Below are positions 5,877 through 62,357 of a DNA stretch of 64,000 bases, piece after piece. The notes under the pieces were generated by a model. It made no database searches. It worked only from the letters and a program-made list of their open reading frames with translations, and was not told the origin of the DNA. The DNA is from Betaproteobacteria bacterium RIFCSPLOWO2_12_FULL_62_58. GTDB taxonomy: Bacteria > Pseudomonadota > Gammaproteobacteria > Burkholderiales > SG8-41. The stretch spans positions 2,626 through 66,625 of the forward strand of contig MERI01000048.1 of the NCBI GenBank assembly GCA_001772005.1, written 5' to 3'. The first letter of the stretch is position 1; every line of letters begins with the position of its first letter. The position numbers and the translations under genes were made by a program.

Positions 5877-5892
5877 GGAGTTTTCCTCGTCC

Positions 5893-6513: not shown

Positions 6514-6591
6514 CGGAATACTCCCATCTTCGGCTCGAAACCTGGCTTGACACAGACCGCGCTCGCCTCCATACTTACACTCATAAACCCC

Positions 6592-6612
6592 GCCGGAGAT
6601 CGCATCTCCGGC
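6592..6612 (-). terminator. 9-bp-stem hairpin after helicase stop (weak terminator or processing site)
   Basis: gccggagat cgc atctccggc; on the minus strand it is followed by GGGGTTTAT. Confidence 0.3.
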
Positions 6613-6616
6613 CCGA

Positions 6617-6645
6617 CGCCTCCCTCGTGGAGGCGTTTCTTTTTG
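6617..6645 (+). terminator. Canonical intrinsic terminator facing the plus strand (antisense to the operon)
   Basis: cgcctcc ctcgt ggaggcg followed by tttctttttg. No credible plus-strand gene lies upstream. Confidence 0.45.
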
Positions 6646-6658
6646 CTTAGCTGGTCGC

Positions 6659-39693: not shown

Positions 39694-39870
39694 ATGGACA
39701 TCAAACCGTCACTATTGGCTGCTAGCGTCGCAAGTCCTCTTTTTTGACGAAGAGGGATAGCGCCTCGCCTCGGGATTATTTATACTTCACGCATCTCGAT
39801 CACGCACCAAGAGCGCACAGCAACGATGACCGTCCAGCACACGTCCGGGCCAGATCGCAGTGCACAAGCG

Positions 39871-39910
39871 TAGCAGCCTGTCGAAGCGCCAAGTCCGACA
39901 GGCTGCTAGC
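39871..39910. repeat. Solo REP hairpin (type B end of the REPIN-like element)
   Basis: tagcagcctgtcg aagcgccaagt ccgacaggctgctagc. Confidence 0.8.
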
Positions 39911-40004
39911 GCCTTCGTCGCCCCCAGCGTCAACTTCCCGCGCTTTGCGCGCGGGCCCGTGCCCCAGCCGCTCTTCTCCTTCGACACTGCAACAGCCTGC
40001 TGCC

Positions 40005-41522: not shown

Positions 41523-41592
41523 GGCTGTCGCCTTCAGGCGCCGGTTGTCCAACGCGGCGGCATGACTGTCCATTCACCATTTACGATCGACC

Positions 41593-43557: not shown

Positions 43558-43565
43558 CAAGAAGA

Positions 43566-43723
43566 GCAGTGAATGGTGAACGATCAACGTTGAGCGGTGA
43601 GCGGTGAGCGGTGAACGGCAAACAATGAAGCGGGATCTTGCCGCTATTGGCGGCCCGCTGTATACCTCCAGTTTCCGTCCGGTCAGCGCTTACCGCTCGC
43701 GGCTTACCGCTTACCGCTTACCG
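43566..43723. repeat. Inverted heptamer arrays (NNGGTGA x8 / CTTACCG x6) around a 60-nt centre
   Basis: gcggtga x3 perfect at 43594-43614; cttaccg x3 perfect at 43703-43723. The right arm contains the pap stop codon. Confidence 0.9.
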
Positions 43724-45219
43724 CCTGCCTTCTTGACGCGCGCGAGCGCCGCCTCGATTGCCTGGCACAGGGTTTTCAATACCTTGATCCGCGCGTGATA
43801 CTTGTTGTTCGCCTCGACCAGCGTCCACGGCGCGAGCGAGGTTGAGGTGCGGTCCACCATGTCGCATACCGCCAATTCGTAATCGTCCCATTTCTTGCGG
43901 TTGCGCCAGTCCTCGGCCGTGATCTTGAAACGCTTGAAGGAAATCGTTTCGCGCGCCTTGAAGCGCTTGTGCTGTTCGTCCTTGCCGATCGCGAGCCAGA
44001 ACTTGACGACCACGATGTTTTGCCGTGCGAGCTCCTGCTCGAAATCGTTGATCTCGGTATAGGCGCGCATCCAATCGGCCTCGGAACAAAACCCCTCGAC
44101 GCGCTCGACCAGCACGCGGCCGTACCACGAGCGGTCGAAGATCACGAAGCGGCCGCGCCGCGGGACGTGACGCCAGAACCGCCACAGATAGGGCTGCGCG
44201 CGTTCCTCTTCGGTCGGTGCGGCGACCGAAATATTCTGGTAACGCCGCGCATCAAGCGCGCCCGTTACGCGCCGGATCGCGCCGCCCTTGCCGGCGGCAT
44301 CGTTGCCTTCGAACACCGCAACTACCGCGATGTCCCTGTAACGCGGATCGCGCGATACTATATTGAGCCGGCCCTGCCATTTTTCGAGCTGCTTCTCGTA
44401 CTCCTGCTTCGACACGTCCTGATCGAGCTGGAGCGCCCGCAGCACGTTGAGCTTATCGATCGACGGCAGCAGCGGCGGGTTCTTGTCCGGGAGCCGCTTA
44501 ACCGGCTTCTCGTCGAGCCGCTCGCGCAGCGCCGCGAGCAGCGTCTTGCCCACCGTGAGGCTGCGGTGGGGAGGGTTGGCGCCCGGCACCACGAGCCACG
44601 GCGCCTCGCCGGTGCTGGTCTTGCGCAGGAACGGCTCGCACACCTTGTTGAAGCGATCGTAGAGCTTGTATAGCGCCCAGTCATTCTTGGTCACGCGCCA
44701 GCTGGTCTTGGGATCCTTCTCCAATGCCTTGAGCCGCTTCTTCTGCTGCTCCTTCGAAAGATGGAACCAGAACTTGAGCAGCAGCACGCCCTCGTCGGTG
44801 AGCATTTTCTCAAAGCGCAGGATCTCGGCGATGTGCTGGTCGAACCTGCCGGCGCCGATGCGCCCCATCACGCGGTCAACGACCGGCTGGGTGTGCCAGG
44901 CGCCGAAGAAGACGCCGATCTTGCCCTTGGGCGGCAGCGCGCGCCAGTAACGCCACATGCGCGGGCGCTCGTTTTCCTCGTCGGAAGGATCGGCAAAGCC
45001 GCTCGCCTCGATGTGGCGCGGATCCATCCACTCGTTGAGCAGGTTGACCGTCTCGCCCTTGCCGGCGCCCTCGACGCCCGCGACCAGGATCAGCACCGGA
45101 AAACGGCCGTTCTGCTTGAGATCGTACTGCGCGTTGAGCAGCGCCTCCCGCAGTTTGGGCTCCTGTCGGCGATAGGCAGTCTTGTCCACCTTGTGATAGA
45201 GATTCGCGGATTCGAACAT
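43711..45219 (-). CDS. pap: two-domain PPK2 (polyphosphate:AMP phosphotransferase type)
   Basis: MFESANLYHKVDK...; two PPK2 P-loops (VAGVEGAGKGE and FEGNDAAGKGG). AAGGAG RBS before 45219; the track ORF is over-extended. Confidence 0.88.
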   Translation of the reverse strand: MFESANLYHKVDKTAYRRQEPKLREALLNAQYDLKQNGRFPVLILVAGVEGAGKGETVNLLNEWMDPRHIEASGFADPSDEENERPRMWRYWRALPPKGKIGVFFGAWHTQPVVDRVMGRIGAGRFDQHIAEILRFEKMLTDEGVLLLKFWFHLSKEQQKKRLKALEKDPKTSWRVTKNDWALYKLYDRFNKVCEPFLRKTSTGEAPWLVVPGANPPHRSLTVGKTLLAALRERLDEKPVKRLPDKNPPLLPSIDKLNVLRALQLDQDVSKQEYEKQLEKWQGRLNIVSRDPRYRDIAVVAVFEGNDAAGKGGAIRRVTGALDARRYQNISVAAPTEEERAQPYLWRFWRHVPRRGRFVIFDRSWYGRVLVERVEGFCSEADWMRAYTEINDFEQELARQNIVVVKFWLAIGKDEQHKRFKARETISFKRFKITAEDWRNRKKWDDYELAVCDMVDRTSTSLAPWTLVEANNKYHARIKVLKTLCQAIEAALARVKKAGGKR

Positions 45220-45233
45220 GGGTTTTCTCCTTT

Positions 45234-45674
45234 CTATAGAAGATCGGGTGCGATTACCGCGCGCAGGATGGTGTCGCGGCCGCGGCGCGCGAGCCACCAA
45301 ATCGCGCCCTTCTTGATGCTCCACTCCTGCGGCTTGCCGGTGAGCAGTAGCGCGGCCGTTTGTCCCAGCGTGGGCTGGTGTCCGACTACCACCACCGTGC
45401 TCTCGCCGTGCGGCCAGGCGGCAACCTTCAGAACCGCCTGCGAGTTGGCTCCGGTGCCGACCTCTTCGGTCACTTCGAATTTCCTGGTCAACGCCTGGGC
45501 AGTCTCGCGTGCGCGCCGTGCGGGACTCGCGAGGATTACCGCGTCTTTCGGCAGCCGCTCCTTGAGCCATGCCGCCATGCGCTCCGCCTGTTTAATGCCT
45601 TTCGCCGTAAGTCGGCGTTCGTCGTCAGGCATGCCGCTTTCCGCATCAGCATGCCGCCACAGAATGAGGTCCAT
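45234..45674 (-). CDS. sixA: phosphohistidine phosphatase SixA
   Basis: MDLILWRHADAE...LTAKG...VVVGHQP histidine-phosphatase motifs. Confidence 0.88.
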   Translation of the reverse strand: MDLILWRHADAESGMPDDERRLTAKGIKQAERMAAWLKERLPKDAVILASPARRARETAQALTRKFEVTEEVGTGANSQAVLKVAAWPHGESTVVVVGHQPTLGQTAALLLTGKPQEWSIKKGAIWWLARRGRDTILRAVIAPDLL

Positions 45675-45753
45675 AATGAGTGACTCGTGACTGGTACCCC
45701 TCAAGGGGGTATTGAAAAGAATGATTCGTGATCAGTGATTTGAAGCAAACGTC

Positions 45754-47289
45754 CTACCAGAACTTCTCGCTGGCGCGAAATGCTTTCCACGCGCCGCGCA
45801 ACTCGCGCCTGAGCGTCAACGCACGGCCGTGGCTCCAGCCGAGCACGAGGCCGCGTGCTTCAGACATCGCCTTGCCCGCCCGCGCCCCGAATGCATCGTG
45901 CACGAGGCGCTCGACCGTGGCCGCATCGTTCATGGCGCCTAGTATATTCTGCAACCGAGCCAAATGGGACACCATGTCGCGCGCGCGTTTCGCCGCGAAC
46001 AGGGTCACGAGGAAATCCATCGCGTAGCGCAGCTTCTTGACCGCGATGCGCAGCCGGTGCAGTTCGGCGGCGGATAATTGCCGCAACTTGCGTCCGCGTT
46101 TCCTGACCCGGGCATAGCGCCGCTCGAGCACGGCGGCGGCGAATTCCCCGGCGGGACTCCCCGGCGTCGCTGGTGATGGCTCGCCTGTTTCGCTGACCCA
46201 TCTTTCCGCGGCCAGCCAGGCGGCGAAACCCAGCACCAGGCGCTGATAACGCGCGGAAGCCACCGCGCGCCGTGCTTTGCGATCGGCGGCGCGCCGCAGC
46301 CGCACGCACTCACGCGCAAACTGCGCCAGCGCCGCATGATCCGCAAATGCTTCGCGGATCGGCGGCAGTGTCTCGGACACAAAGACATCCCAGTCACGCG
46401 CCGGGCCGAGGGCGCCGGCGAGCCATCTGAACTCGGCCAGCAGCGGTTCAGTCGTCGTTTCCGGCAACACCGCTGCAAACCCCCTGAAGGCGGACCTCAA
46501 CCGCCGCAGCGCGACGCGCATCTGGTGGAGATACTCGGGATCGCGCCCTTCCAGCATGCCGTGCTCGTTGGCCTGAAGATGATTAAGCGTCGTCCATGCA
46601 ATGGTCTTGAATGCATCGCTTACGGTCATGTCTGCGGCAAGCTCTGCAGTAACCGTTTTGGCGGGCGTCGGCCGCTCGCCGCGGAATAGTGCGTAGCCGC
46701 GTTCGGCCTTGGAGCGGTTCTCGATACGCAGTGGGGCCACCTCGAGCAGCTTCAGCGCGAACTCGTAGACCTGCCAGGCCGGTCCCGATTTCAGCTCAAG
46801 CTCGAGCTCGCACACCGGTTCGGCAGTATCGCCGCTCTTGATCTCGCCCCGGTCCACGCTCACCTCTACGTTTACCCCGGGACTGAGCTCGATCAAGCGG
46901 CTGCTGCGGCTGAACTCGGTGACGAACACCGGTTTCAACTGCGCGCGCAGCTCTCGCGAAGCGAAGATTTCGGTCAGCGTGCTATCGGCGATCCTGGCGC
47001 AGTCCGGATACGGTCCGGCGACCTCGGTCTCGATCTCGACCCTCTGGTGCAGCCCGGCTTGCACCGTGCCACCGCCCTTTACGGTTTGCAGCCAGCGTCC
47101 GCCGCTGCGCCGCACCCGCAGCGCGACGCCGTGTTGCCACAGATCAAGTTCGGGCGTATCGAAGTAAAGGCTATAAAGTTTCCTCACCACCGGGCGCAAG
47201 TGGCCCTTGAGCAGCGGGTGCGCCCTCACTCGGCGCGCAGCCTCGGGAGAGACCCGCAGCTTGAGTTCGGTTTCGGTGACGGGGTTCAC
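45754..47289 (-). CDS. ygiF: CYTH + CHAD domain protein (YgiF-like triphosphatase)
   Basis: ETELKL...YFDTP...ALRVR...CELELELKSG are CYTH tunnel motifs; helical Arg/His-rich CHAD C-terminal half. Confidence 0.8.
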   Translation of the reverse strand: MNPVTETELKLRVSPEAARRVRAHPLLKGHLRPVVRKLYSLYFDTPELDLWQHGVALRVRRSGGRWLQTVKGGGTVQAGLHQRVEIETEVAGPYPDCARIADSTLTEIFASRELRAQLKPVFVTEFSRSSRLIELSPGVNVEVSVDRGEIKSGDTAEPVCELELELKSGPAWQVYEFALKLLEVAPLRIENRSKAERGYALFRGERPTPAKTVTAELAADMTVSDAFKTIAWTTLNHLQANEHGMLEGRDPEYLHQMRVALRRLRSAFRGFAAVLPETTTEPLLAEFRWLAGALGPARDWDVFVSETLPPIREAFADHAALAQFARECVRLRRAADRKARRAVASARYQRLVLGFAAWLAAERWVSETGEPSPATPGSPAGEFAAAVLERRYARVRKRGRKLRQLSAAELHRLRIAVKKLRYAMDFLVTLFAAKRARDMVSHLARLQNILGAMNDAATVERLVHDAFGARAGKAMSEARGLVLGWSHGRALTLRRELRGAWKAFRASEKFW

Positions 47290-47366
47290 GATCAGACGTG
47301 ATCGGGCTTGAACGGTCTCATCTTAGCCGAATCCGCGCCTGCCAGAAAACCAGAAACGGCTTCCGG

Positions 47367-49445
47367 TCACGCCGGGCGTCTGAGCGCGAGCATGTCGAGC
47401 AAGATGTCCTGCGCGGCGAGCGGCTTGCCACGGCGTCCCGTTTTCAGCTGATAACGGCCATCCTGGTCCATTTCCCACGCCTGGGAATTGTCTTCGAGGT
47501 AGGGTTTCAGGCCCTCGTTGATGACCCGTTTCTTGAGCCCGGGATCGAGTACCGGAAAGCAGATCTCGATGCGGCGGAAGAAATTGCGGTCCATCCAATC
47601 CGCGCTCGAAAGGTACACATCTTCGGCGCCGTTGTTGTGGAAATAGAACACGCGGGAGTGTTCGAGAAAACGGCCGACGATCGAACGCACGCGGATGTTG
47701 TCCGAAACGCCGACAAGGCCCGGCCGCAGCGCACATACGCCGCGCACGATAAGATCGATCGCAACCCCGGCCTTGGACGCGTCGTAAAGCGCCGCGATCA
47801 CTTCGGGTTCGAGCAGTGCGTTCATCTTGGCGATGATCTGCGCCTTGTGGCCGGCCGCGGCGTGCTGCGCTTCGGTCTGGATCGCGCGCAGCACCTGTTT
47901 GTGCAGCGTGAAAGGCGATTGCCATAGGTGTTTCAGCCGGACCGCGCGCCCCAGCCCGGTCAGCTCGATGAACATGTCGTTGACATCGACGCCGATTTCC
48001 TCGTTGGAGGTAAAAAGGCCGAAGTCGGTGTAAAGCGTCGCCGTCCGCGGATGGTAGTTACCGGTCGCCAGGTGCACATAGCGCCGCAACCGCTCGTCCT
48101 CGCGCCTGACCACCATCGCCATCTTGGCGTGGGTCTTGTGGCCGACCACGCCGTAGACGACGTGCGCGCCGACCTCCTCCAGGCGCTGCGCCCAGTTGAT
48201 ATTGGCCTCCTCGTCAAAGCGCGCCAGCAGTTCCACCACCACGGTGATTTCCTTGCCGCTCTTCGCCGCCCCGATCAGGATTTCCATCAGCTCCGACTCC
48301 GCGCCGGTGCGGTAGACGGTCTGCTTGATCGCCACCACGTTGGGATCGCGCGCCGCCTGCTCGAGGAACGCAATCACCGGCCGGAACGACTGGAATGGAT
48401 GATAGAGCAGGATTTCGCCGTTACGCATGGCGCTGAACATGTCGCTCGACGGTTCAAGCTCCTTCGGCAATCCCGGTATGAAGCGCGGAAATTTGAGATC
48501 GGGCCGCTCGACCCAGTCCGGCACGTTCATGAGCCGCACCAGGTTGACAGGCCCGTTGACGCGGTAAAGATCATCCGGGCCGAGGTTGAATTGCGCCAGC
48601 AGAAAATCCGAGATCTGCTGCGGGCAGTTCGCCGCGACCTCCAGCCTGACCTCGTCGCCGAACTGGCGGTGCGGAAGCTCGCCGCGCAGCGCGGTGCGCA
48701 GGTCCGTGATTTCCTCCTCGTCGACGAAAAGCTCGCTGTTGCGCGTCACGCGAAACTGGTGGCAATCGACTACCTTCATGCCGGCGAAAAGCTCCCTGAC
48801 GTGCTCGTGCAGGATGGAAGACAGAAATACGAAATCGTAGTCGGCGGCGGCGATCTCGCGCGGCAGCCGGATCACCCGCGGCAGCACGCGCGGCGCCTGC
48901 ACGATGGCGAGCCCGGAGCTGCGTCCGAAGGCATCCTTGCCCTCAAGCTCAACGGCGAAATTGAGGCTCTTGTTGAGCACGCGCGGAAAAGGATGCGCCG
49001 GATCGAGCCCGATCGGCGTCAGCACCGGCATGACCTCGCGGAAGAAGTAGGCCTTGACCCACTCGGCCTGCGCCGGCGTAAAGTCGGAACGGCGCAGGAA
49101 GCGCACGCGTTCGCTGGCGAGACCGGGCAGGATTTCCTGGTCAAGGAGCTGATATTGGGCGGTGACGAGGTCGTGCGCCTCCTGCGCGACTCGCTTGAAC
49201 ACCTGGTCGGCGCGCATGCGGTCCGGGCCGATCGGCGGCGATCCGGCCTCGATCTCGGCCTTGAGGCCCGCGACCCGGATCTCGAAGAACTCGTCGAGGT
49301 TGCTGCTGACGATGCAGAGAAACTTGAGCCGCTCGAACAGCGGGTGGCCGCGGTTCTCCGCCTGCGCCAGCACCCGCCGGTTGAAGGCGAGCTGACCCCA
49401 CTCGCGGTTGAGGTACAGTTCCGGGGCAAGACGCGTCTTGCTCAT
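47367..49445 (-). CDS. ppk1: polyphosphate kinase 1
   Basis: 692 aa; YLNREWGQLAFNRRVL..., HAKMAMV autophosphorylation His region, two PLD-like C domains. Confidence 0.95.
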   Translation of the reverse strand: MSKTRLAPELYLNREWGQLAFNRRVLAQAENRGHPLFERLKFLCIVSSNLDEFFEIRVAGLKAEIEAGSPPIGPDRMRADQVFKRVAQEAHDLVTAQYQLLDQEILPGLASERVRFLRRSDFTPAQAEWVKAYFFREVMPVLTPIGLDPAHPFPRVLNKSLNFAVELEGKDAFGRSSGLAIVQAPRVLPRVIRLPREIAAADYDFVFLSSILHEHVRELFAGMKVVDCHQFRVTRNSELFVDEEEITDLRTALRGELPHRQFGDEVRLEVAANCPQQISDFLLAQFNLGPDDLYRVNGPVNLVRLMNVPDWVERPDLKFPRFIPGLPKELEPSSDMFSAMRNGEILLYHPFQSFRPVIAFLEQAARDPNVVAIKQTVYRTGAESELMEILIGAAKSGKEITVVVELLARFDEEANINWAQRLEEVGAHVVYGVVGHKTHAKMAMVVRREDERLRRYVHLATGNYHPRTATLYTDFGLFTSNEEIGVDVNDMFIELTGLGRAVRLKHLWQSPFTLHKQVLRAIQTEAQHAAAGHKAQIIAKMNALLEPEVIAALYDASKAGVAIDLIVRGVCALRPGLVGVSDNIRVRSIVGRFLEHSRVFYFHNNGAEDVYLSSADWMDRNFFRRIEICFPVLDPGLKKRVINEGLKPYLEDNSQAWEMDQDGRYQLKTGRRGKPLAAQDILLDMLALRRPA

Positions 49446-55346: not shown

Positions 55347-56693
55347 ATGCGATTCAAGACCGATACTCCCGCCACCGGGAGCACCCCGTATCAGTTCGCG
55401 GTACGCTGGATAACGCTTGCCTCTTTGAGTAGCGCCCTCGCGCTGGGCGTGCTTGCGCATGCGGCGGAAGCGCCGCCCACCGTGGCCAAAGCGCAGAGCA
55501 CCACACCGCTCCGGGATCTCGTCAAGGAAGCGCTGCAAAACAGTCCCGAGATTCGGGCAGCCCGCAAGGAGCAGGAGGCGGCCTCTCAGCGTATCGCGCC
55601 GGCGGGCGCGCTGGACGATCCCATGCTGGAGGCGGGCATCATTAATCTCCCGACCAGCTCATTCCGCTTCGACCGTGAAGACATGACGATGAAAATGATC
55701 GGGCTGTCGCAGCGTTTTCCCTACCCCGGCAAGCGCGGCTTGCGCCAGGATGTCGCCGCCCGGGAGGCGGAATCGTCCGGTTACGGCTACCAGGAAACCC
55801 TGAATCGCGTCGTGCGGGAAATCAGGACTGCTTGCTACGACCTCTATCTCGTCATCGAATCGGCCCGGCTGGTGGAAAAAAACAAGTTCATCTTGGAGCA
55901 ATTTCTCCGCATCGCGGAAACGCGTTACTCGGTCGGACAGAGCAGCCAGGCCGATGTGCTGAAGGCCCAGACGCAGTTATCGAAAATGTTGGAGGAGTTG
56001 ATCAAGCTCGCACGCGAGCGCCCGATGTTCGAAGCCGAACTCAATCGCGCGCTCGGCCGCGATGCGAGCGCTCCCCCTCCGCTGCCGGAGGCGCCCCAAC
56101 TCCGGCCGGTTGCGTTGCCTCTCCAGTCCTTGCTCGAAGCCGCCGTCCGCCAGCGCCCGCAGCTGCTCGCTTTGCAAAGCACGATTGCTCGCAACGAGAA
56201 AATGCTCGATCTCGCACGCAAGGATTACTATCCCGACTTCGATGTGCGGTTCTCGTACGGCCAGCGCGACAACATGCCGGACGGCGCGCGGCGCTCGGAC
56301 ATGATCAATTTCACCGTCGCGATCAACCTGCCCGTATGGCGCGATAACAAGCTCGCGCCGCGCGTCACCGAGGCGCAGGCGATGCGCGAGCAGGCGAGCA
56401 ACATGTACCGCGCAATGCGCAACGAGCTCGCCATGAAGCTGCGCCAGCAGGTTGCCGCCGCCGAGCAAAGCCAGCGCGCGGCGCACTTGTATCAAACCGA
56501 GATCCTGCCGCAGGCACGGCTCACCGTAGAGGCCGCGCTCGCCGCGTACCGGGTCAACCGCGTCGACTTCATGACGCTGCTCGACAGCCAGATGACGGTT
56601 TTGAACGCCGAAATCAGCCATGCGGGGACAATCGTCAATTTCAACAAAGCGCTGGCGGAAATCGACCTGCTCACCGGCGCAATGGTGCAATAA
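55347..56693 (+). CDS. cusC: outer-membrane efflux protein (TolC family, CusC-like)
   Basis: 448 aa; signal peptide; two-repeat OEP architecture; first gene of the CBA operon. Confidence 0.85.
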   Translation: MRFKTDTPATGSTPYQFAVRWITLASLSSALALGVLAHAAEAPPTVAKAQSTTPLRDLVKEALQNSPEIRAARKEQEAASQRIAPAGALDDPMLEAGIINLPTSSFRFDREDMTMKMIGLSQRFPYPGKRGLRQDVAAREAESSGYGYQETLNRVVREIRTACYDLYLVIESARLVEKNKFILEQFLRIAETRYSVGQSSQADVLKAQTQLSKMLEELIKLARERPMFEAELNRALGRDASAPPPLPEAPQLRPVALPLQSLLEAAVRQRPQLLALQSTIARNEKMLDLARKDYYPDFDVRFSYGQRDNMPDGARRSDMINFTVAINLPVWRDNKLAPRVTEAQAMREQASNMYRAMRNELAMKLRQQVAAAEQSQRAAHLYQTEILPQARLTVEAALAAYRVNRVDFMTLLDSQMTVLNAEISHAGTIVNFNKALAEIDLLTGAMVQ

Positions 56694-56725
56694 GCGGCGC
56701 GATTTCCTCTTGCTGGAGAACTGAT

Positions 56726-58096
56726 ATGAGACGGATGGCTACTGTATCGCTCGTTCTGGTGCTGGTCGCAGCAGCGCTTGCGGCCGGCTACTGGCTGGGA
56801 AGCCGGAAGGATGAAGGCGGAACGCTGAGGACGGAAACGGTCGCTCCGGGCCGCGCGGATTCCGGAAAGAAACCCGAACGCAGGATTCTTTACTACCGCA
56901 ATCCCATGGGCCTGCCCGACAATTCTCCGGTGCCCAAAAAGGACCAGATGGGCATGGCCTATATACCAGTCTACGAGGGCGAGGAGCCGGAGCCGACCGG
57001 CCCGGCGATGAAGATCAGCCTCGATAAGGTGCAAAAACTGGGCGTGAAGACCGAGCCCGTCGCGCTGCGCTCTCTGACCCGCACGCTGCGCGCGGTCGGC
57101 ACCGTGGAGCTCGACGAGCGCCAGGTTTATACGGTGGCGCCGAAATTCGAGGGTTGGATCGAGCGGCTGCACGTCAACACGACCGGACAATATGTGCGCC
57201 GCGGCCAGGTGCTGATGGAAGTGTACAGCCCGGACCTCGTGATCGCGCAGCAGGAGTACATCATCGCCTGGAAGGGCATGGAGTCGGTGAAAGATGCAAG
57301 CCCGGACGCTCGGGCCAACATGGGGCACCTCGTCAAGAGCGCGCTCGAGCGCCTGCGCAACTGGGACATCTCGGAGGACGAGATGGCGCGGCTGCAGAAA
57401 GAAGGCGTTTCGAGGCGGACCCTCACGCTGCGCTCGCCGGTGAGCGGCGTAGTGCTCGACAAGCCGGCACTGAAAGGCATGCGCTTCATGCCCGGTGAAG
57501 TGCTGTACAAGATCTCCGACATGTCGTCGGTGTGGCTGCTTGCCAACATCTTCGAGCAGGACCTTGGGCTTGTGCAGCCCGGTCAGGCGGCGCGAATCTC
57601 CGTCAACGCATATCCGGGCAAGGTCTTTTCCGGGAAAGTCGCGTTCGTCTATCCCACCGTCACGCCCGAGACCCGCACGGCGAAGGTGCGCATCGAGCTT
57701 TCGAATCCAGGCGGGCAGCTCAAACCGGCGATGTACGCGAACGTGGAGCTCATTGCCCGGCGCCCGAAGGACCAGGTGCTCACTGTGCCCGACTCTGCCG
57801 TGATCGACAGCGGCACGCGGCAGATCGTACTGGTGCAGCGCGGCGAGGGGCTGTTCGAGCCGCGCCCTGTGAAGCTCGGCACCTACGCGGACGGTTATGT
57901 CGAAGTGCTGGAAGGCCTCCAAGCGGGCGAAAACGTGGTCGTCACCGCAAACTTCCTGATCGATTCAGAGAGCAATCTGAAAGCCGCGCTTGGCACGTTC
58001 GGCAGCGGCGCCGGCGCCACTGAAACAAAGCCGGCCGCCGCGCCCCAGGAAGCACAGCGCGCACCCGCGAGCGCCGAGGGCCAGAAGGGACACTGA
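56726..58096 (+). CDS. cusB: efflux RND periplasmic adaptor (CusB-like)
   Basis: YYRNPMGLPDNSPVPKKDQMGMAYIPVY metal-binding N-terminal region; HlyD-type barrel-sandwich. Confidence 0.88.
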   Translation: MRRMATVSLVLVLVAAALAAGYWLGSRKDEGGTLRTETVAPGRADSGKKPERRILYYRNPMGLPDNSPVPKKDQMGMAYIPVYEGEEPEPTGPAMKISLDKVQKLGVKTEPVALRSLTRTLRAVGTVELDERQVYTVAPKFEGWIERLHVNTTGQYVRRGQVLMEVYSPDLVIAQQEYIIAWKGMESVKDASPDARANMGHLVKSALERLRNWDISEDEMARLQKEGVSRRTLTLRSPVSGVVLDKPALKGMRFMPGEVLYKISDMSSVWLLANIFEQDLGLVQPGQAARISVNAYPGKVFSGKVAFVYPTVTPETRTAKVRIELSNPGGQLKPAMYANVELIARRPKDQVLTVPDSAVIDSGTRQIVLVQRGEGLFEPRPVKLGTYADGYVEVLEGLQAGENVVVTANFLIDSESNLKAALGTFGSGAGATETKPAAAPQEAQRAPASAEGQKGH

Positions 58097-58097
58097 C

Positions 58098-61000
58098 ATG
58101 CTGAACCGCATCATAGAGTGGTCCGTACGAAACGCCTTTTTGGTGCTGCTAGGGACGGCATTCATCGTCGCCGCCGGCTTGTATGCAGTGTACAAGACGC
58201 CGCTCGATGCCATCCCCGACCTCTCCGACGTGCAAGTCATCATCTACACGGAATATCCCGGTCAGGCGCCGCAGGTGGTGGAGGACCAGGTCACCTATCC
58301 CCTCACGACGGCGATGCTCAGCGTGCCGCGCTCGAAGGTCGTGCGCGGGTTTTCGTTTTTCGGCGCTTCCTTCGTCTACGTCATTTTCGAGGACGGCACG
58401 GACATCTACTGGGCGCGCTCGCGGGTGCTCGAATATCTCAACTTCGCGGCCGGGCGGATGCCGCGCGGCGTGGCCCCGTCGCTGGGCCCCGATGCCACCG
58501 GGGTGGGCTGGGTTTACCAATATGCAGTCATGGGCGCGAAGCGCTCGCTCGCCGAATTGCGCACGCTTCAGGACTGGTTCATCCGCTATCAGCTTACCAA
58601 GGCGCAAGGCGTAGCCGAAGTCGCGAGCGTCGGCGGCTTCGTCCAGCAATACCAGGTGACCGTCAACCCGCGCAAGCTGCAAGCCTACGGTATTCCGCTG
58701 TCGAAAATTGCTCAGGTGATCCGCATGAGCAATACCGACGTCGGCGGGCGCGTAGTCGAGATGGCGGAAACCGAATACATGGTGCGGGGACGCGGCTACC
58801 TGCGCGGGGCTTCCGATCTCGAGCAACTGGTCCTCAAGGCCGAAGGCGGCATCCCGGTGCTGCTGAAGGACGTGGCGCGCGTGGAGCTCGGCCCCGACGA
58901 GCGCCGCGGCATCACGGAGCTCAACGGCGAGGGCGAGGTCGTCGCCGGCATCGCGATGGCGCGCTACGGTCAGAACGCCCTCGACGTGATCGACAACATC
59001 AAGGCGAAGATCGCGGAGATCGCCACCGGCCTGCCCGAAGGCGTCGCCATCGAACCGGTCTACGACCGGTCCGACCTCATCCATCGCGCGATCGACAACC
59101 TCAAAGTGACCCTGATCGAGGAAAGCGTGATCGTGGCGCTGGTGTGCATGTTGTTCCTGCTGCACGTGCGCAGCGCCCTGGTCGCGATCATCATGCTGCC
59201 GATCGGGGTGCTGATCGCCTTCATCGCCATGCGCTTTCTCGGCCTCAATTCGAACATCATGAGCCTGGGTGGGATAGCGATTGCCATCGGGGCCATGGTC
59301 GACGCCGCGATCGTGATGATCGAAAACGCGCACAAGCATCTCGAGCGCCTGGAGCCCGGCGCGTCGCGGCTGGAAGCCATCATAACCGCGTGCCGCGAAG
59401 TCGGGCCCGCCCTCTTCTTCAGCCTGCTGATCATCACGGTTTCGTTTCTGCCCGTATTCACACTCGAGGCGCAGGAAGGCCGGATGTTCTCGCCGCTCGC
59501 CTACACCAAGACTTTCGCCATGGCGGGCGCCGCTTTCCTGTCGATCACGCTCGTGCCGGTGCTGATGCTGCTGTTTATCCGCGGAAGGATTCGCAGTGAA
59601 TCCGCGAATCCTTTGAGCAGAATCATGATCGCGGCTTATCGTCCGCTCCTCGCAACAGCACTGCGCCATCGGGCATGGGTGCTGGTGATCGCGGGCATAG
59701 TTTTGTCGCTAACGCTCTACCCAGCGACAAAACTCGGGACGGAGTTCATGCCGACCCTGAACGAAGGGACGCTGCTCTACATGCCGTCCGGCCTGCCGGG
59801 CATGTCGGTGACCAAGGCGGCGGAGATCATGCAGATCCAGAACCGGATCATCAAGAGCCTCCCGGAGGTGGCGTCCGTATTCGGCAAGGCGGGACGCGCC
59901 AACAGTGCGACGGATCCGGCGCCGGTGGAAATGTTCGAGACCGTGGTCAATCTCAAGCCGGAAGCCGAGTGGCGGCCGGGGATGACGCTAGACAAGCTCA
60001 TCGCCGAGCTGGACCAGGCGGTGTCGATGCCCGGCATCAGCAACGCCTGGACCATGCCGATCAAGGCGCGGATCGATATGCTCTCGACCGGCATCCGCAC
60101 GCCCATCGGCATCAAAGTCTTCGGCAAGGATCTTGCCGAGATGGAGCGGCTGGCCAAGACAATCGAAGCGGTGGTGAAAACGGTGCCCGGCACCACGAGC
60201 GCCTATGCCGAGCGCATCACCGGCGGCTATTTTCTCAACATCGAGCCGGACCGCATGGCGCTCGCCCGCTATGGGCTCGCGACCGGAGACCTCCAGGAAG
60301 TCGTCATGACCGCCCTCGGCGGTGAAATGGTCACCACCACCGTGGAAGGCCGCGAGCGCTTCGGAGTCATCGTGCGCTACCCGCGGGAGCTGCGCAGCGA
60401 CCCGCAATCGATCGCTGCCCAGGTGCTGGTCCCCACCATGATGAGCGGCGCCATGATTCCGCTGGGCCAGGTAGCAAAAGTGACCCTGACGCAAGGCCCT
60501 CCCGGCATACGCACCGAGAACGCGCTGCTGTCGGCGTACATCTTCGTGGACATCCGCGGTCGCGACATCGGCGGGTATGTGGCCGACGCGCAAAAAGCGG
60601 TGCGCGAACAGGTAAAGTTCCCGCCCGGCTACTACGCCACGTGGAGCGGCCAATTCGAATATATGGAGCGCGCCAAAGAGCGAATGAAGGTCGTGATGCC
60701 GGTGACGCTGCTCCTCATCTTCATTCTGCTGTATCTCAACTTCCGGCGCCTCACCGAGACGGTAATCGTGATGCTTTCCGTGCCGTTCTCGCTGGTGGGC
60801 GGTATCTGGCTGATGTATCTGCTCGGCTACAACATGAGCGTCGCGGTTGCGGTCGGATTCATCGCGCTCGCGGGGGTCGCCGCGGAGATCGGCGTAGTCA
60901 TGCTGATCTATCTCGACCAGGCGCTTGCCGCAGTGACTGAGCGGCGGCGGGCGGAAGGCAAGCCGGTTACAGTGGCCGATCTCTACGATGCGGTCATGCA

Positions 61001-61253
61001 AGGGGCGGCCATGCGCGTGCGCCCGATCATGATGACCGTCTTCGCCATCATCGCCGGTCTGCTGCCGATCATGTGGGGTAGCGGCACCGGTTCCGAAGTC
61101 ATGCGCCGCATCGCCGCGCCGATGGTCGGGGGAATGATCTCCGCCACCATCCTCACCCTGATCGTGATCCCGGCGATCTACGCGCTGGTGAAGGAAGTCG
61201 CGATCAGCCGCGCCGCCGCGGCAGCGGGTTTGCAAACGAAGGCCGCAACCTGA
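58098..61253 (+). CDS. cusA: heavy-metal efflux RND pump, CusA family
   Basis: MLNRIIEWSVRNAFLVLL...; GGIAIAIGAMVDAAIVMIENAHKHLE is near-identical to the E. coli CusA motif. Start trimmed to 58098. Confidence 0.93.
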   Translation: MLNRIIEWSVRNAFLVLLGTAFIVAAGLYAVYKTPLDAIPDLSDVQVIIYTEYPGQAPQVVEDQVTYPLTTAMLSVPRSKVVRGFSFFGASFVYVIFEDGTDIYWARSRVLEYLNFAAGRMPRGVAPSLGPDATGVGWVYQYAVMGAKRSLAELRTLQDWFIRYQLTKAQGVAEVASVGGFVQQYQVTVNPRKLQAYGIPLSKIAQVIRMSNTDVGGRVVEMAETEYMVRGRGYLRGASDLEQLVLKAEGGIPVLLKDVARVELGPDERRGITELNGEGEVVAGIAMARYGQNALDVIDNIKAKIAEIATGLPEGVAIEPVYDRSDLIHRAIDNLKVTLIEESVIVALVCMLFLLHVRSALVAIIMLPIGVLIAFIAMRFLGLNSNIMSLGGIAIAIGAMVDAAIVMIENAHKHLERLEPGASRLEAIITACREVGPALFFSLLIITVSFLPVFTLEAQEGRMFSPLAYTKTFAMAGAAFLSITLVPVLMLLFIRGRIRSESANPLSRIMIAAYRPLLATALRHRAWVLVIAGIVLSLTLYPATKLGTEFMPTLNEGTLLYMPSGLPGMSVTKAAEIMQIQNRIIKSLPEVASVFGKAGRANSATDPAPVEMFETVVNLKPEAEWRPGMTLDKLIAELDQAVSMPGISNAWTMPIKARIDMLSTGIRTPIGIKVFGKDLAEMERLAKTIEAVVKTVPGTTSAYAERITGGYFLNIEPDRMALARYGLATGDLQEVVMTALGGEMVTTTVEGRERFGVIVRYPRELRSDPQSIAAQVLVPTMMSGAMIPLGQVAKVTLTQGPPGIRTENALLSAYIFVDIRGRDIGGYVADAQKAVREQVKFPPGYYATWSGQFEYMERAKERMKVVMPVTLLLIFILLYLNFRRLTETVIVMLSVPFSLVGGIWLMYLLGYNMSVAVAVGFIALAGVAAEIGVVMLIYLDQALAAVTERRRAEGKPVTVADLYDAVMQGAAMRVRPIMMTVFAIIAGLLPIMWGSGTGSEVMRRIAAPMVGGMISATILTLIVIPAIYALVKEVAISRAAAAAGLQTKAAT

Positions 61254-61272
61254 CTTGAAAAAGGAGATGATC

Positions 61273-61683
61273 ATGAAACCAATTACTTCAACCGTTGCTT
61301 CCCTGGCGTTGCTGGCTCTAATAACGCTGCCGGCGCACGCGGAGATGAAAGACATGCCCGGAATGAAGCAAACGCCGGGCGTGAAAACGGACGCGGCCAA
61401 GACCGCCGAGAACCAGGCTCACAAAGGGCAAGGTACGGTCAACGGCGTGGACGTGAGGGCAGGCAAAGTCAACCTCACCCATGGCCCGATCGCGACCCTC
61501 AAATGGCCCGGGATGACGATGGAGTTTCAGGTCAAGAGCAAGGCGTTGCTGAAAGGCGTCACGCCCGGGCAGAACGTCGAATTCGACATCGCGCAGCAGG
61601 GCCCGGGCCAGTTTGTCATCACCCGAATCGCGCCCGCCGCCAAGAAAAATAACGGGAAAGCTGCTGAGGGTGCCGGCAAGTAA
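61273..61683 (+). CDS. cusF: periplasmic copper/silver-binding protein CusF-like
   Basis: Signal peptide, then GTVNGVDVRAGKVNLTHGPIATLKWPGMTMEF, the CusF H/M/W metal-site pattern. AAGGAG RBS at 61261. Confidence 0.85.
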   Translation: MKPITSTVASLALLALITLPAHAEMKDMPGMKQTPGVKTDAAKTAENQAHKGQGTVNGVDVRAGKVNLTHGPIATLKWPGMTMEFQVKSKALLKGVTPGQNVEFDIAQQGPGQFVITRIAPAAKKNNGKAAEGAGK

Positions 61684-61791
61684 GCAAGAATCAGGCGCCT
61701 TGTCTGTATGCAACCAGAGGCGAGGTACTGCTCCGCACCCAGAGCTTGTCCAGGTCGCCAATGTAAGATCCGTCAATAATGGAGTAGATAT

Positions 61792-62262
61792 ATGATCTTC
61801 AAACTTTCTTGGAAATTATGGTGGGCTGGCGCCGCGGTGCTATTTTTGATGTTGGCGGCTCCGGCGCTGCCTCAGCAGGCTCCGCGTGGCTCCGATGTCA
61901 TCGTGTATGAAAGCCCTACCTGAGGGTGCTGTTCCAAGTGGGTAGGTTACCTGCGAGAGAATGGTTTCAAGGTCGAGAAAAAGGACGTGTCGGAATCTCA
62001 ATTGGACGCGATAAAACTGAAGCATGGCGTGCCGCCTCGACTCAGGGAATGTCACACAGCGCTCGTGGGGGGTTATGTAATCGAAGGGCATGTCCCCGTG
62101 GACGCGATTACACGGTTGTTGACAGAAAAGCCGCCAGTCATCGGGTTGGCTGTGCGGGGAATGCCGATCGGATCCCCTGGAATGGAAGGCCCCCATCCTC
62201 AGCGGTACGATGTGCTCTCTTTCGATCGGCTGGGCCGTGTGTCGGTATACGCCCGAAAATAA
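61792..62262 (+). CDS. copG: DUF411/CopG-family copper-binding protein interrupted by one in-frame TGA at codon 44 (Sec candidate or pseudogene)
   Basis: ATG at 61792 with GGAG RBS and a signal peptide, then VIVYESPT-TGA-GCCSKWVGYL...CHTALVGGYVIEGHVP...GMPIGSPGME. The TGA (61921-61923) sits where the family has the first Cys of CGCC. Confidence 0.6.
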
Positions 62263-62357
62263 TCGGTGGCAGCTTCTGACTGAATCGCAGGCCGGTCTGG
62301 TGCAATTTCCAGGCTTGTGCGACCTAAGTCCGACAAACTCCTAGGCGGCGCTCAAGT

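What the first reader, a model, noticed from the sequence alone, without database searches (positions are those of the whole stretch)
61792..62262. DUF411/CopG gene with TGA exactly at the first Cys of the CxCC copper site plus a downstream GGU-loop hairpin: selenocysteine candidate
**Seen (reading frame):**
- An ATG at 61792 has a GGAG RBS and a signal peptide. The frame reads ...VIVYESPT-TGA-GCCSKWVGYLRENGF...ECHTALVGGYVIEGHVP...GMPIGSPGMEG..., ending at 62262.
- It is otherwise uninterrupted. The ORF track shows only the distal 91 aa.

**Seen (hairpin):**
- Fourteen nt after the TGA (61921-61923), a 7-bp stem forms between GTGGGTA (61938-61944) and TACCTGC (61948-61954). It includes two G-U pairs.
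- The stem is closed by a GGU loop (61945-61947), which puts the loop about 22-25 nt from the UGA.

**Established:**
- DUF411/CopG proteins carry a conserved C-x-C-C motif that ligates a multinuclear copper cluster.
- Bacterial Sec insertion needs a stem-loop shortly 3' of the UGA with G/U in the apical loop.
- Most Sec residues replace a catalytic or redox Cys.

**Inference:** this is either a previously unnoticed selenoprotein form of CopG next to cusCBAF, or a one-base TGC/TGT-to-TGA nonsense mutation. I do not recall DUF411 among the listed bacterial selenoprotein families.
Basis: partly seen in the sequence, partly recalled or inferred. Interest (0 to 1): 0.8.

Follow-up and report, generated by a model that had tools for sequence, protein, structure and literature searches.

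The report
Selenocysteine form of copper protein CopG
The "stop" codon inside this periplasmic copper-resistance gene (CopG/DUF411) is almost certainly read as selenocysteine, and the same recoded gene recurs in well over 80 environmental bacteria, so it looks like a widespread selenoprotein family absent from the catalogues I could check.

Summary
An ATG at 61792 opens a 156-codon frame that ends at 62262. Its only interruption is a TGA at 61921-61923, on the first Cys of the CxCC copper motif of DUF411/CopG. A 7-bp hairpin with a GGU loop lies at 61938-61954.

The selenocysteine reading is strongly supported, and a nonsense mutation or sequencing error is excluded:
- Three other assemblies carry the same TGA.
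- All the closest database homologues are truncated gene calls whose contigs have TGA at the same codon.
- A metagenome pattern scan hit its 120-match limit. All 80 loci fetched encode complete DUF411 proteins with U-G-C-C.
- Four MAGs (Deltaproteobacteria, Myxococcota, Acidobacteriota) carry Sec forms.
- Codons just after the UGA are under purifying selection (pN/pS 0.21).
- TGA is also the commonest true stop, in the window and in these same genes.
- A hairpin centred about 25 nt after the UGA is perfect in 48/80 Sec forms against 5/72 Cys forms.
- A synonymous His-codon position covaries with its stem partner in Sec forms only.

The sel machinery could not be checked. DUF411 is absent from a 2026 table of 119 prokaryotic selenoprotein families and has no NCBIfam model. 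I rate it a new member of a known kind.

The parts
61781..61784 (+). GGAG ribosome-binding site, 7 nt upstream of the ATG
   Evidence: Read directly from the sequence.
61792..62262 (+). Complete Sec-containing CopG/DUF411 gene: 156 codons, Sec at codon 44, TAA stop
   Evidence: Translation. Pfam DUF411 E = 6e-24. PDB CopG 6WIS E = 1.8e-26. Orthologues have the same architecture.
61792..61872 (+). Predicted Sec-pathway signal peptide (about residues 1-27: K-rich N region, AGAAVLFLMLAA core, APALP). The cleavage site is inferred, not computed.
   Evidence: The sequence itself. The upstream frame is conserved with an ATG 43 codons before the UGA in all six window-clade orthologues. CopG is periplasmic (PMC7558416).
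61921..61923 (+). In-frame UGA read as selenocysteine (residue 44)
   Evidence: Aligns with the invariant first Cys of CxCC. Conserved as TGA in more than 85 loci. Identical in 3 other assemblies.
61921..61932 (+). U-G-C-C motif, the CxCC copper-cluster and UxxC redox motif of the thioredoxin-like fold
   Evidence: In the AlphaFold model of the Cys sister P0001, residue 44 lies in the loop between strand 35-40 and helix 46-56.
61938..61954 (+). Upper SECIS-like hairpin: 7-bp stem with a GGU apical loop (61945-61947), 21 nt after the UGA
   Evidence: Perfect stem in 48/80 Sec forms against 5/72 Cys forms. Compensatory GUA/UAC, GUG/CAC and AUG/CAU variants. Synonymous divergence suppressed (pS 0.09 against 0.30 and 0.67 in the flanks).
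61925..61968 (+). Extended SECIS-like stem-loop: a lower G-U-rich helix plus the upper hairpin
   Evidence: RNAfold minimum-free-energy structure. Partly recovered by RNAalifold on the window clade. The lower helix is weakly supported.
62050..62055 (+). Conserved Cys87-His88 (CHT motif)
   Evidence: Invariant columns C87 and H88 in alignment A2. Conserved against 6WIS.
62089..62091 (+). Conserved His100 (EGHVP motif)
   Evidence: Invariant in A2. Present in 75/75 complete Sec forms.
62161..62184 (+). GMPIGSPGM motif carrying the two conserved Met residues (Met124, Met131) that ligate copper in CopG
   Evidence: Invariant in A2. Present in 75/75 Sec forms. The Met ligands are described in PMC7558416 and PMC8456105.
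55347..56693 (+). cusC-like outer-membrane factor (OEP)
   Evidence: Pfam OEP E = 4e-50.
56726..58096 (+). cusB-like membrane-fusion protein
   Evidence: Pfam HlyD_D23 E = 1e-80 and CusB_dom_1.
57990..61253 (+). cusA-like RND pump. The mechanical ORF starts at 57990; the true start is probably near 58100.
   Evidence: Pfam ACR_tran E = 1e-234, starting at residue 42 of the ORF.
61255..61683 (+). cusF-like periplasmic copper chaperone, immediately upstream of the Sec-CopG gene
   Evidence: Pfam CusF_Ec E = 4e-27. Same order on L081 and L208.

Best explanation
The gene at 61792-62262 encodes a secreted (periplasmic) CopG/DUF411 copper-resistance protein in which selenocysteine replaces the first cysteine of the CxCC motif.

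**Proposed mechanism (inferred from established bacterial Sec decoding)**
- During translation the UGA at 61921 is not read as stop.
- The stem-loop that starts 14 nt downstream (upper helix 61938-61954, GGU loop, inside a longer imperfect helix 61925-68) acts as a bacterial SECIS.
- The SECIS recruits SelB-GTP-Sec-tRNA(Sec), which inserts Sec.

**Proposed role of the product (inferred from CopG work)**
- The mature protein is a thioredoxin-fold protein with a U-G-C-C site.
[quoted passage not shown] That protein is proposed to interconvert Cu(I) and Cu(II) and to help copper resistance under anaerobic conditions.
- Here a selenolate would take the place of one thiolate, at the position of the nucleophilic N-terminal residue of a thioredoxin-type CxxC (U44-x-x-C47).
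- I infer that this gives a more reactive and more oxidation-tolerant copper-binding or redox site. It would serve the adjacent CusCBA-CusF efflux system.

**Shown here**
- Conservation of the UGA across many lineages.
- Coding constraint on both sides of the UGA.
- RNA-level selection on the hairpin.
- Homology to CopG and fold of the Cys sister form.
- Operon context.

**Not shown**
- SelB dependence and actual Se insertion.
- The chemistry at the copper site.
For: **1. The base call is real.**
- L208 and L210 are identical over 454-471 nt. L209 has 9 mismatches. All three come from other samples and all carry TGA.

**2. The UGA is conserved.**
- The closest protein-database relatives (P0004, P0005, P0010, P0090; 84-93% identity) are all N-truncated gene calls.
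- Their contigs (L081-L087) read ...PT-TGA-GCC..., with an intact signal-peptide frame upstream.
- A 42-bit DNA pattern requiring TGA at this codon reached the 120-match limit in JGI metagenomes. 80/80 fetched loci translate to DUF411 proteins with U-G-C-C (75 complete, the rest cut by a contig end); the 79 near-complete Sec forms compared, MAGs included, average 55% pairwise identity, down to 38%.
- 4 of 78 DUF411 genes in species-representative genomes are Sec forms.

**3. Translation continues through the UGA.**
- pN/pS is 0.21 for the 21 codons between the UGA and the first possible restart codon, against 0.23 for the rest of the domain.
- The ligand motifs EGHVP and GMPxGSPGM are present in 75/75 complete Sec forms.

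**4. There is no genome-wide reassignment of UGA.**
- 11/23 Pfam-validated window genes end in TGA.
- 41/75 complete Sec-form genes themselves end in TGA.

**5. The hairpin behaves like a SECIS.**
- Perfect 7-bp stem in 48/80 Sec forms against 5/72 Cys forms, Fisher p = 1e-12.
- Local folding energy is lower in Sec forms at equal GC (Mann-Whitney p = 2e-5 on energy, 2e-9 on z-scores).
- The third position of the His codon covaries with its stem partner in Sec forms (p = 3e-5) and not in Cys forms (p = 1.0).
- 64.7% of cells are paired, against 31-48% when the partners are slid. No shuffle of 500 reached the observed covariation score.
- The loop triplets are mostly GGU, GUU or GAU in Sec forms and most often GAG in Cys forms.
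- Within the window clade, synonymous divergence is 0.09 in the hairpin codons against 0.30 and 0.67 in the flanks.
- Other clades have different sequences but a hairpin centred at the same distance from the UGA.

**6. Protein identity.**
- Pfam DUF411 and PDB CopG.
- AlphaFold model of the Cys sister: pLDDT 88.5, with residue 44 just before helix 1.
- Foldseek top hits are 6WIS/6WJE (TM 0.87-0.89), followed by thioredoxins.

**7. Context.**
- cusC-cusB-cusA-cusF lie immediately upstream. The same order occurs on L081.
- CusF-like, CusA-like and multicopper-oxidase genes neighbour other Sec forms.
Against: - No selA, selB, selD or tRNA-Sec was found in the 64-kb window or in the flanks of 31 related loci. 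The rest of the genome could not be searched, so Sec-decoding capacity in this organism is assumed, not shown.
- On the window sequence alone the hairpin is not better than shuffles (z = -0.75). It has two G-U pairs and only a 3-nt loop.
- RNAalifold finds no single consensus over all 84 Sec forms, because clades use different registers.
- One clade of 11 Sec forms shows no shared hairpin at all.
- Part of the stem is forced by conserved amino acids (W-V-x-H-L). Cys forms still pair at a mean of 4.8 of 7 positions, and the Cys sister forms keep a partial hairpin.
- The covariation statistics do not correct for phylogenetic relatedness.
- There is no experimental evidence of Se incorporation.
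Confidence: 0.9

Rival explanations
1. Nonsense mutation or pseudogene. A TGC or TGT became TGA and the gene is dead, or it makes only a 43-residue peptide.
For: - TGA is one step from TGC or TGT.
- Gene callers split the gene.
- No sel genes are visible in the window.
Against: - The same TGA occurs in more than 85 divergent orthologues from independent samples and MAGs.
- There are no further stops or frameshifts.
- pN/pS is 0.21-0.23 downstream of the TGA.
- All ligand motifs are retained.
- Independent pseudogenisation at one codon in dozens of lineages is not credible.
Confidence: 0.01
2. Sequencing or assembly error at 61921-61923.
For: None specific. It is a generic possibility for a single-base feature.
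Against: - L208 (Logan SRR3989307) and L210 (ERZ27254873) match the window gene with 0 mismatches.
- L209 (ERZ27254792) is a 9-mismatch variant.
- All three have TGA at this codon.
Confidence: 0.01
3. The UGA is read through by a route other than SelB and Sec. Possibilities are near-cognate decoding as Trp or Cys, or lineage-wide reassignment of UGA. The product would then be an ordinary CopG, or a low-level, regulated one.
For: - Sec machinery is unverified for this genome.
- One Sec-form clade lacks a recognisable hairpin.
- Leaky UGA decoding exists in bacteria (general knowledge).
Against: - UGA is the commonest genuine stop in the window (11/23) and in the same genes (41/75), so there is no reassignment.
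- The UGA always sits on a metal- or redox-active Cys column, the hallmark of Sec/Cys pairs.
- A hairpin at the SECIS distance is selected only in UGA forms.
- The carriers with named taxonomy belong to Deltaproteobacteria/Myxococcota, Acidobacteriota and Betaproteobacteria. From my own knowledge, Sec use is common in these groups.
Confidence: 0.06
4. The hairpin is a by-product of the conserved peptide W-V-G-Y-L, not a SECIS. The real recoding signal lies elsewhere.
For: - Cys forms also pair at about 4.8 of 7 stem positions.
- Several stem columns never vary.
- Single-sequence z is -0.75.
- Clade A lacks the hairpin.
Against: - Synonymous positions (Val third base GTG against GTC, His third base) are biased toward pairing only in Sec forms.
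- Loop residues differ between Sec and Cys forms.
- Synonymous divergence drops specifically in the hairpin codons.
- Clades with other peptides keep a hairpin at the same distance through different sequences.
Confidence: 0.1

Closest known systems
CopG / CutG (Pfam DUF411, PF04214; P. aeruginosa CopG, PDB 6WIS and 6WJE)
   Same: - Same family: Pfam E = 6e-24 and PDB E = 1.8e-26.
- Same thioredoxin-like fold in the Cys sister model (TM 0.87-0.89).
- Same conserved CH, EGHVP and GMPxGSPGM motifs.
- Signal peptide present.
- Linked to cusCBA-cusF, as described for CopG-like genes (PMC7558416, PMC8456105).
   Different: - The first Cys of CxCC is encoded by UGA (Sec) instead of TGC or TGT.
- The mRNA carries a selected hairpin after that codon.
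- All characterised CopG/CutG proteins are Cys forms.
Bacterial Sec/Cys selenoprotein families with a UxxC motif in a thioredoxin fold (Sec-thioredoxin, Sec-glutaredoxin, DsbA-like, Prx-like, etc.; Table 1 of PMC13188914)
   Same: - In-frame UGA at the position of the N-terminal redox Cys, just before helix 1.
- Cys-containing homologues are in the majority.
- A SECIS-like hairpin lies immediately downstream within the coding region.
- Patchy phylogenetic distribution, with many Sec/Cys switches.
   Different: - The site is a metal-cluster ligand set (CxCC plus Met), not a simple dithiol/disulfide.
- DUF411 is not among the 119 families and subfamilies listed.
- No NCBIfam selenoprotein model matches it.
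E. coli fdhF-type bacterial SECIS (SelB-binding stem-loop). Compared from my own knowledge of Huttenhofer et al. 1996, Liu et al. 1998 and the bSECISearch model of Zhang and Gladyshev 2005.
   Same: - The stem-loop lies inside the ORF directly 3' of the UGA.
- The apical loop contains G then U (GGU), at positions 25-27 counted from the U of UGA. In fdhF the equivalent G23/U24 lie at nearly the same distance.
- The loop falls inside the 16-37 nt window used by bSECISearch.
- Lower and upper helices are separated by an internal loop.
   Different: - A 3-nt loop rather than the 4-nt GGUC.
- No obvious bulged U in the upper stem.
- The lower helix is G-U rich and poorly conserved.
- There is no covariance model for bacterial SECIS in Rfam to score it against (one search found nothing).
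Other predicted selenoproteins of metal handling: SO_0444 Cu/Zn efflux transporter (UxC), heavy-metal P-type ATPase (UxxC), CopZ-family 2Fe-2S protein, YHS-domain protein, MerT/HgcA/SaoB (PMC13188914)
   Same: Sec is placed at a predicted metal-ligand Cys in a metal-resistance context. The protein is encoded next to efflux machinery.
   Different: A different fold and family. Here the Cys homologue has a solved tetranuclear copper cluster, so the predicted Se-metal site is structurally defined.

Membership tests
DUF411 / CopG | Match to PF04214 above the gathering score | tested here: met
   84 bits against a cut-off of 27, E = 6e-24.
DUF411 / CopG | C-x-C-C motif after strand 1 of a thioredoxin-like fold | tested here: met
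   U-G-C-C at residues 44-47. The column is Cys in 116/116 full-length homologues and aligns with N-C-G-C-C of 6WIS. The first position is Sec rather than Cys, so the motif is met as a Sec/Cys variant.
DUF411 / CopG | Conserved Met pair (GMPxGSPGM) and His residues that complete the copper site | tested here: met
   C87, H88, H100, M124 and M131 are present. They are invariant columns in A2 and present in 75/75 Sec forms.
DUF411 / CopG | CopG three-dimensional fold | tested here: met
   AlphaFold model of the 69%-identical Cys sister P0001: pLDDT 88.5. Foldseek gives 6WIS/6WJE at TM 0.87-0.89 and rmsd 1.7-1.9 A. The window protein itself was not modelled.
DUF411 / CopG | Binds a tetranuclear copper cluster and contributes to copper resistance | not testable with these tools
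   Known only for P. aeruginosa CopG (Hausrath et al. 2020, as summarised in PMC7558416 and PMC8456105).
Bacterial selenoprotein gene | In-frame UGA aligned with Cys in homologues | tested here: met
Bacterial selenoprotein gene | UGA conserved in orthologues, with coding conservation on both sides | tested here: met
   More than 85 loci. pN/pS is 0.21 just after the UGA and 0.41-0.49 before it.
Bacterial selenoprotein gene | SECIS stem-loop immediately 3' of the UGA, with a G/U-containing apical loop about 16-37 nt away | tested here: met
   Hairpin at 61938-54 with the loop GGU 21 nt after the UGA. Enriched and covarying in Sec forms against Cys forms. Not met for one distant clade of 11 Sec forms.
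Bacterial selenoprotein gene | Genome encodes selA, selB, selC (tRNA-Sec) and selD | not testable with these tools
   None in the window (no tRNA; large ORFs) or in the flanks of 31 related loci.
Bacterial selenoprotein gene | UGA is otherwise a stop codon in the same organism | tested here: met
   11/23 validated window genes end in TGA. 41/75 Sec-form genes end in TGA.
Bacterial selenoprotein gene | Selenium demonstrated in the protein | not testable with these tools
   Needs 75Se labelling or mass spectrometry.
Catalogued selenoprotein families (NCBIfam selenoprotein models; Table 1 of PMC13188914) | Match to an existing selenoprotein family model or listing | tested here: not met
   NCBIfam gives only sub-threshold hits: glutaredoxin-like at 19 bits and Spx/ArsC-like at 17 bits. 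PF04214, DUF411 and CopG are absent from the 119-family table. The Brachyspira PF13192 'UxC' family is unrelated.

The most novel reading that the evidence does not exclude
Sec-containing CopG (U-G-C-C DUF411) is a widespread bacterial selenoprotein family that has not been catalogued.

- In it a selenolate replaces a bridging or ligating thiolate of a tetranuclear copper cluster, at a UxxC redox site.
- This would link selenium availability directly to periplasmic copper detoxification.
- Sec and Cys forms have interconverted many times across Proteobacteria, Myxococcota and Acidobacteriota.
- At least one clade uses a recoding signal that does not look like the canonical proximal hairpin.
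Probability: 0.6. Interest if true: 0.72.

Novelty: new member of a known kind. Interest (0 to 1): 0.66.

Why it matters
- **Annotation.** Every gene caller behind the databases I searched truncates these genes to a 43-aa stub plus an 86-101-aa fragment with no signal peptide. A whole class of copper-resistance proteins is therefore mis-annotated in MAGs and metagenomes. A TGA-aware DUF411 model would fix this.
- **Biology.** CopG is one of the few copper-homeostasis proteins with a solved multinuclear copper-thiolate cluster and a proposed Cu(I)/Cu(II) oxidoreductase role. A natural Sec variant at a cluster/redox Cys gives a ready-made probe of that mechanism: Se against S in ligand strength, pKa, redox potential and resistance to over-oxidation. 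It predicts selenium-dependent copper tolerance in soil and groundwater bacteria.
- **Selenoproteomics.** It adds an abundant family to the roughly 119 listed. It also supplies more than 80 Sec/Cys-paired sequences on which bacterial SECIS predictors can be tested, including one clade where they would fail.

Tried and rejected
- **Single-sequence fold significance.** Not significant (z = -0.75), so I did not rely on it.
- **RNAalifold on all 84 Sec forms.** It gave no consensus because clades use different registers. Clade-wise folding and explicit pair counting were used instead.
- **Rfam scan of 61700-62350.** Nothing relevant.
- **tRNA-Sec search.** None in the window or in 31 related loci.
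- **Pfam scan of 30 window ORFs for SelA, SelB or SelD.** None found.
- **Scan of the window for other in-frame-TGA genes by GC3 on both sides.** Four weak candidates, none convincing.
- **Neighbour-gene clustering around Sec forms.** Noisy, because high GC produces spurious ORFs. Only CusF-like (9 loci), CusA (5) and multicopper oxidase (5) were interpretable.
- **Search for a shared hairpin in clade A.** None found.
- **The Hausrath 2020 CopG paper.** Not held. Its content is taken second-hand from PMC7558416 and PMC8456105.
- **First dN/dS run.** It included a sequence with an indel (L099) and was discarded. It was redone.
- **Brachyspira 'UxC' thioredoxin-like selenoprotein as a possible identity.** Rejected, because it is a different Pfam family and a different protein.
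Full report

Yes, at every coordinate given.
- GGAG (61781-61784) precedes an ATG at 61792.
- The frame runs 156 codons to TAA at 62260-62262. Its single interruption is the TGA at 61921-61923, in the context VIVYESPT-TGA-GCCSKW.
- The mechanical ORF list shows only a 43-aa piece and a 91-aa piece.
- The hairpin is present and is recovered by RNAfold inside a longer imperfect helix spanning 61925-61968. It consists of GTGGGTA (61938-44), GGT (61945-47) and TACCTGC (61948-54).
- Taken alone its stability is unremarkable (z = -0.75 against dinucleotide shuffles). The single-sequence hairpin is therefore not evidence by itself.

**2. What is the protein?**

- With the TGA read as Cys, the product matches Pfam DUF411 (E = 6e-24, 84 bits against a cut-off of 27), with a weak glutaredoxin-like N-terminus.
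- It matches the solved P. aeruginosa copper-resistance protein CopG (6WIS/6WJE, E = 1.8e-26). The TGA falls on the first Cys of N-C-G-C-C.
- In the 116 full-length homologues among the 120 listed, that column is Cys in 116/116, and the motif is CGCC in 115.
- An AlphaFold model of the 69%-identical Cys sister P0001 has pLDDT 88.5. It places residue 44 in the loop between strand 35-40 and helix 46-56. This is the classical position of the nucleophilic Cys of a thioredoxin-type CxxC, here U44-x-x-C47.
- Foldseek returns CopG (TM 0.87-0.89), then thioredoxins and glutaredoxins.
- The other conserved residues are all present: C87-H88, H100, and M124 and M131 in GMPIGSPGM.
- The N-terminus has the look of a Sec-pathway signal peptide.
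- The gene is the last member of a cusC (55347-56693), cusB (56726-58096), cusA (to 61253), cusF (61255-61683) cluster. This matches the published linkage of CopG-like genes with cusCBA (PMC7558416).

**3. Mutation, error or recoding?**

- *Sequencing error is excluded.* The exact 91-aa C-terminal ORF occurs on three contigs from other samples. Two are identical to the window over 454-471 nt, one differs at 9 positions, and all carry the TGA.
- *A private nonsense mutation is excluded.*
  - The four closest protein-database relatives (84-93% identity) are all N-truncated calls.
  - Their contigs (L081-L087, several independent metagenomes) read ...PT-TGA-GCC..., with an ATG and a signal peptide 43 codons upstream.
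  - L081 has the same cusCBA...cusF-DUF411-rsmE order as the window.
- *The feature is widespread.*
  - I scanned JGI metagenomes with a DNA pattern for V-[YF]-x-x-P-T-TGA-G-C-C-x-x-W, about 42 bits, so fewer than one chance match is expected (my own rough estimate, not a tool result).
  - The scan stopped at its 120-match limit.
  - All 80 loci returned translate to DUF411 proteins with U at this position and an upstream signal-peptide-like frame. 75 of the 85 Sec loci examined have complete downstream ORFs, and all 75 carry the EGHVP and GMPxGSPGM motifs.
  - The Sec forms are as diverse as the Cys forms: mean pairwise identity is 55%, with a minimum of 38%.
  - Among 78 DUF411 genes recovered from species-representative genomes, four are Sec forms. 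They come from two Deltaproteobacteria MAGs, a Myxococcota MAG and an Acidobacteriota MAG.
- *Translation passes the UGA.* In six window-clade orthologues the 21 codons between the UGA and the first possible restart codon have pN/pS = 0.21. The rest of the domain has 0.23 and the upstream frame 0.41-0.49.
- *UGA is not reassigned.* It is the commonest genuine stop among Pfam-validated window genes (11/23). It also terminates 41 of 75 complete Sec-form genes.

**4. Is the hairpin a SECIS?**

The comparison between Sec forms and Cys forms is the informative test, because both encode nearly the same peptide (W-V/I-x-H-L).

| Test | Sec forms | Cys forms | Statistic |
|---|---|---|---|
| Perfect 7-bp stem at the window's register | 48/80 | 5/72 | Fisher p = 1e-12 |
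| Mean local folding energy, +10..+48, at equal GC | -11.8 kcal/mol | -8.5 kcal/mol | p = 2e-5 (p = 2e-9 on z-scores) |
| His-codon third base (CAC/CAU) against its stem partner (G/A) | odds ratio 19 | odds ratio 0.85 | p = 3e-5 against p = 1.0 |
| Preferred Val codon at the stem top | GUG (pairs with CAC) | GUC | none computed |
| Commonest loop codons | GGU, GUU, GAU | GAG | none computed |

- The window clade uses GUA/UAC where others use GUG/CAC or AUG/CAU. These are compensatory changes.
- On the 84-sequence ungapped alignment, 64.7% of cells pair, against 31-48% when partners are slid. No shuffle of 500 reaches the observed covariation score.
- Within the window clade, synonymous divergence falls to 0.09 in the five hairpin codons, against 0.30 and 0.67 in the flanks.
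- Other clades have stronger and longer stems in a shifted register, always centred about 25-27 nt from the U of UGA.
- From established knowledge, this is where the G23/U24 SelB-contact loop of E. coli fdhF sits. It is also inside the 16-37 nt window of the bSECISearch model.

Caveats:
- The statistics are not corrected for phylogeny.
- RNAalifold finds no single consensus across all clades.
- One clade of 11 Sec forms has no shared hairpin.
- The Cys sisters P0001 and P0002 retain a partial hairpin.

**5. What could not be shown?**

- The window holds no tRNA, and no SelA, SelB or SelD was found among its large ORFs.
- The flanks of 31 related loci hold no tRNA-Sec.
- An S-adenosylhomocysteine hydrolase in the window is 85-91% identical to proteins of uncultured Betaproteobacteria/Burkholderiales MAGs, which suggests the host lineage. 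Its Sec trait is assumed, not tested.
- Se incorporation and the chemistry at the copper site are inferences.

**6. Mechanism proposed**

- *Decoding (inferred, standard bacterial Sec decoding).* SelB-GTP-Sec-tRNA(Sec) binds the 61938-61954 stem-loop as the ribosome reaches the UGA at 61921 and inserts Sec44.
- *Export (inferred).* The pre-protein is exported and its signal peptide is removed.
- *Known chemistry of the homologue.*
  - It is proposed to act as a Cu(I)/Cu(II) oxidoreductase and copper-transfer protein.
  - It aids copper resistance under anaerobic conditions (PMC7558416, PMC8456105, both citing Hausrath et al. 2020).
- *Consequence here (inferred).* The mature thioredoxin-fold protein would present a selenolate in place of the first thiolate. 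Se has a lower pKa, higher nucleophilicity and softness, and oxidises reversibly. I therefore expect tighter or faster Cu(I) capture, or a more robust redox cycle, working with CusF/CusCBA.

**7. Evolution**

- A neighbour-joining tree of 79 Sec and 187 Cys forms gives 19 pure-Sec clades and at least 13 Sec/Cys changes by parsimony.
- Resolution is weak for a protein of about 120 residues, and the sampling is biased.
- Even so, the pattern is the patchy Sec/Cys interconversion typical of bacterial selenoprotein families.

**8. Novelty**

- No paper in the held library combines DUF411 with selenoprotein or selenocysteine. None combines copper resistance, selenoprotein and in-frame TGA.
- A May 2026 review tabulates 119 prokaryotic selenoprotein families and subfamilies with their Pfam or NCBIfam identifiers. 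PF04214, DUF411 and CopG are not among them.
- The family is also absent from the GOS selenoproteome paper and from the supplements of Peng et al. 2016.
- NCBIfam release 20 has no model matching this protein above noise.
- The Brachyspira 'UxC' thioredoxin-like selenoprotein is a different family.
- The principle is thoroughly known: a Sec/Cys pair at a UxxC site in a thioredoxin fold, with a proximal bacterial SECIS. Sec has also been predicted before in other metal-handling proteins.
- I therefore classify this as a new member of a known kind. It is likely unreported (about 0.6-0.7, given my limited view of the literature), abundant, and systematically mis-annotated.

**9. Verdict**

- The Sec interpretation is supported, at confidence about 0.9 that the UGA is decoded as Sec.
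- Interest is 0.66. This is a solid, testable addition to the selenoproteome and to copper biology, not a new kind of mechanism.

Noticed in passing
L123, L124, L125, L129, L133, L135, L141, L142, L156, L159, L161 (region UGA to +63): A clade of 11 Sec-DUF411 genes (motif UGCCGDW..EY, lipoprotein-like signal peptides) conserves the in-frame UGA. No shared hairpin is detectable downstream, so it may use a non-canonical or more distal SECIS.
   Followed up: partly
L098, L103, L147, L165, L119, L093, L112 and L101, L102, L114, L151, L126 (+43 to +60 after the UGA): A second, near-perfect hairpin (GGCUUCC-NGGU-GGAAGCC) follows the first in these clades. It is encoded by G-F-Q/R-V-E/K-A/P. Its role, if any, is unknown.
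   Followed up: no
L211 1272-1334 and L212 280-342 (genes of the Cys sister proteins P0001 and P0002): The nearest Cys forms (67-69% identity, TGC at the Sec codon) still fold into a partial hairpin at the same place. This is compatible with a recent Sec-to-Cys switch and a decaying SECIS.
   Followed up: partly
window 61792-62262 compared with 55347-62262: The Sec-CopG gene has 55.8% GC, against 62.3% for the cus operon and 62.4% for the rest of the window. Its GC3 is about 0.62, against at least 0.72 in typical coding frames here.
   Followed up: no
L081 6690-7046: The closest orthologous contig carries a P-II (PF00543) gene between cusA and cusF. The window lacks it: there cusF starts 2 nt after cusA ends.
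   Followed up: no
window 39744-49445: A dense polyphosphate-metabolism cluster: Ppx/GppA, a protein with a pyruvate-kinase barrel, PPK2 (two domains), CYTH-CHAD and PPK1.
   Followed up: no
window 2628-10231 (minus strand): A DUF1156 protein (1081 aa) lies next to an HTH-SNF2-helicase-NOV_C protein (1189 aa). The pair resembles a defence or restriction-like island.
   Followed up: no
window 61792-61923 and 61987-62262; L081-L087; L208-L210: Public gene calls split every Sec form into a 43-aa ORF plus an 86-101-aa DUF411 fragment with no signal peptide. This is a systematic annotation error across ENA, JGI and Logan assemblies.
   Followed up: yes
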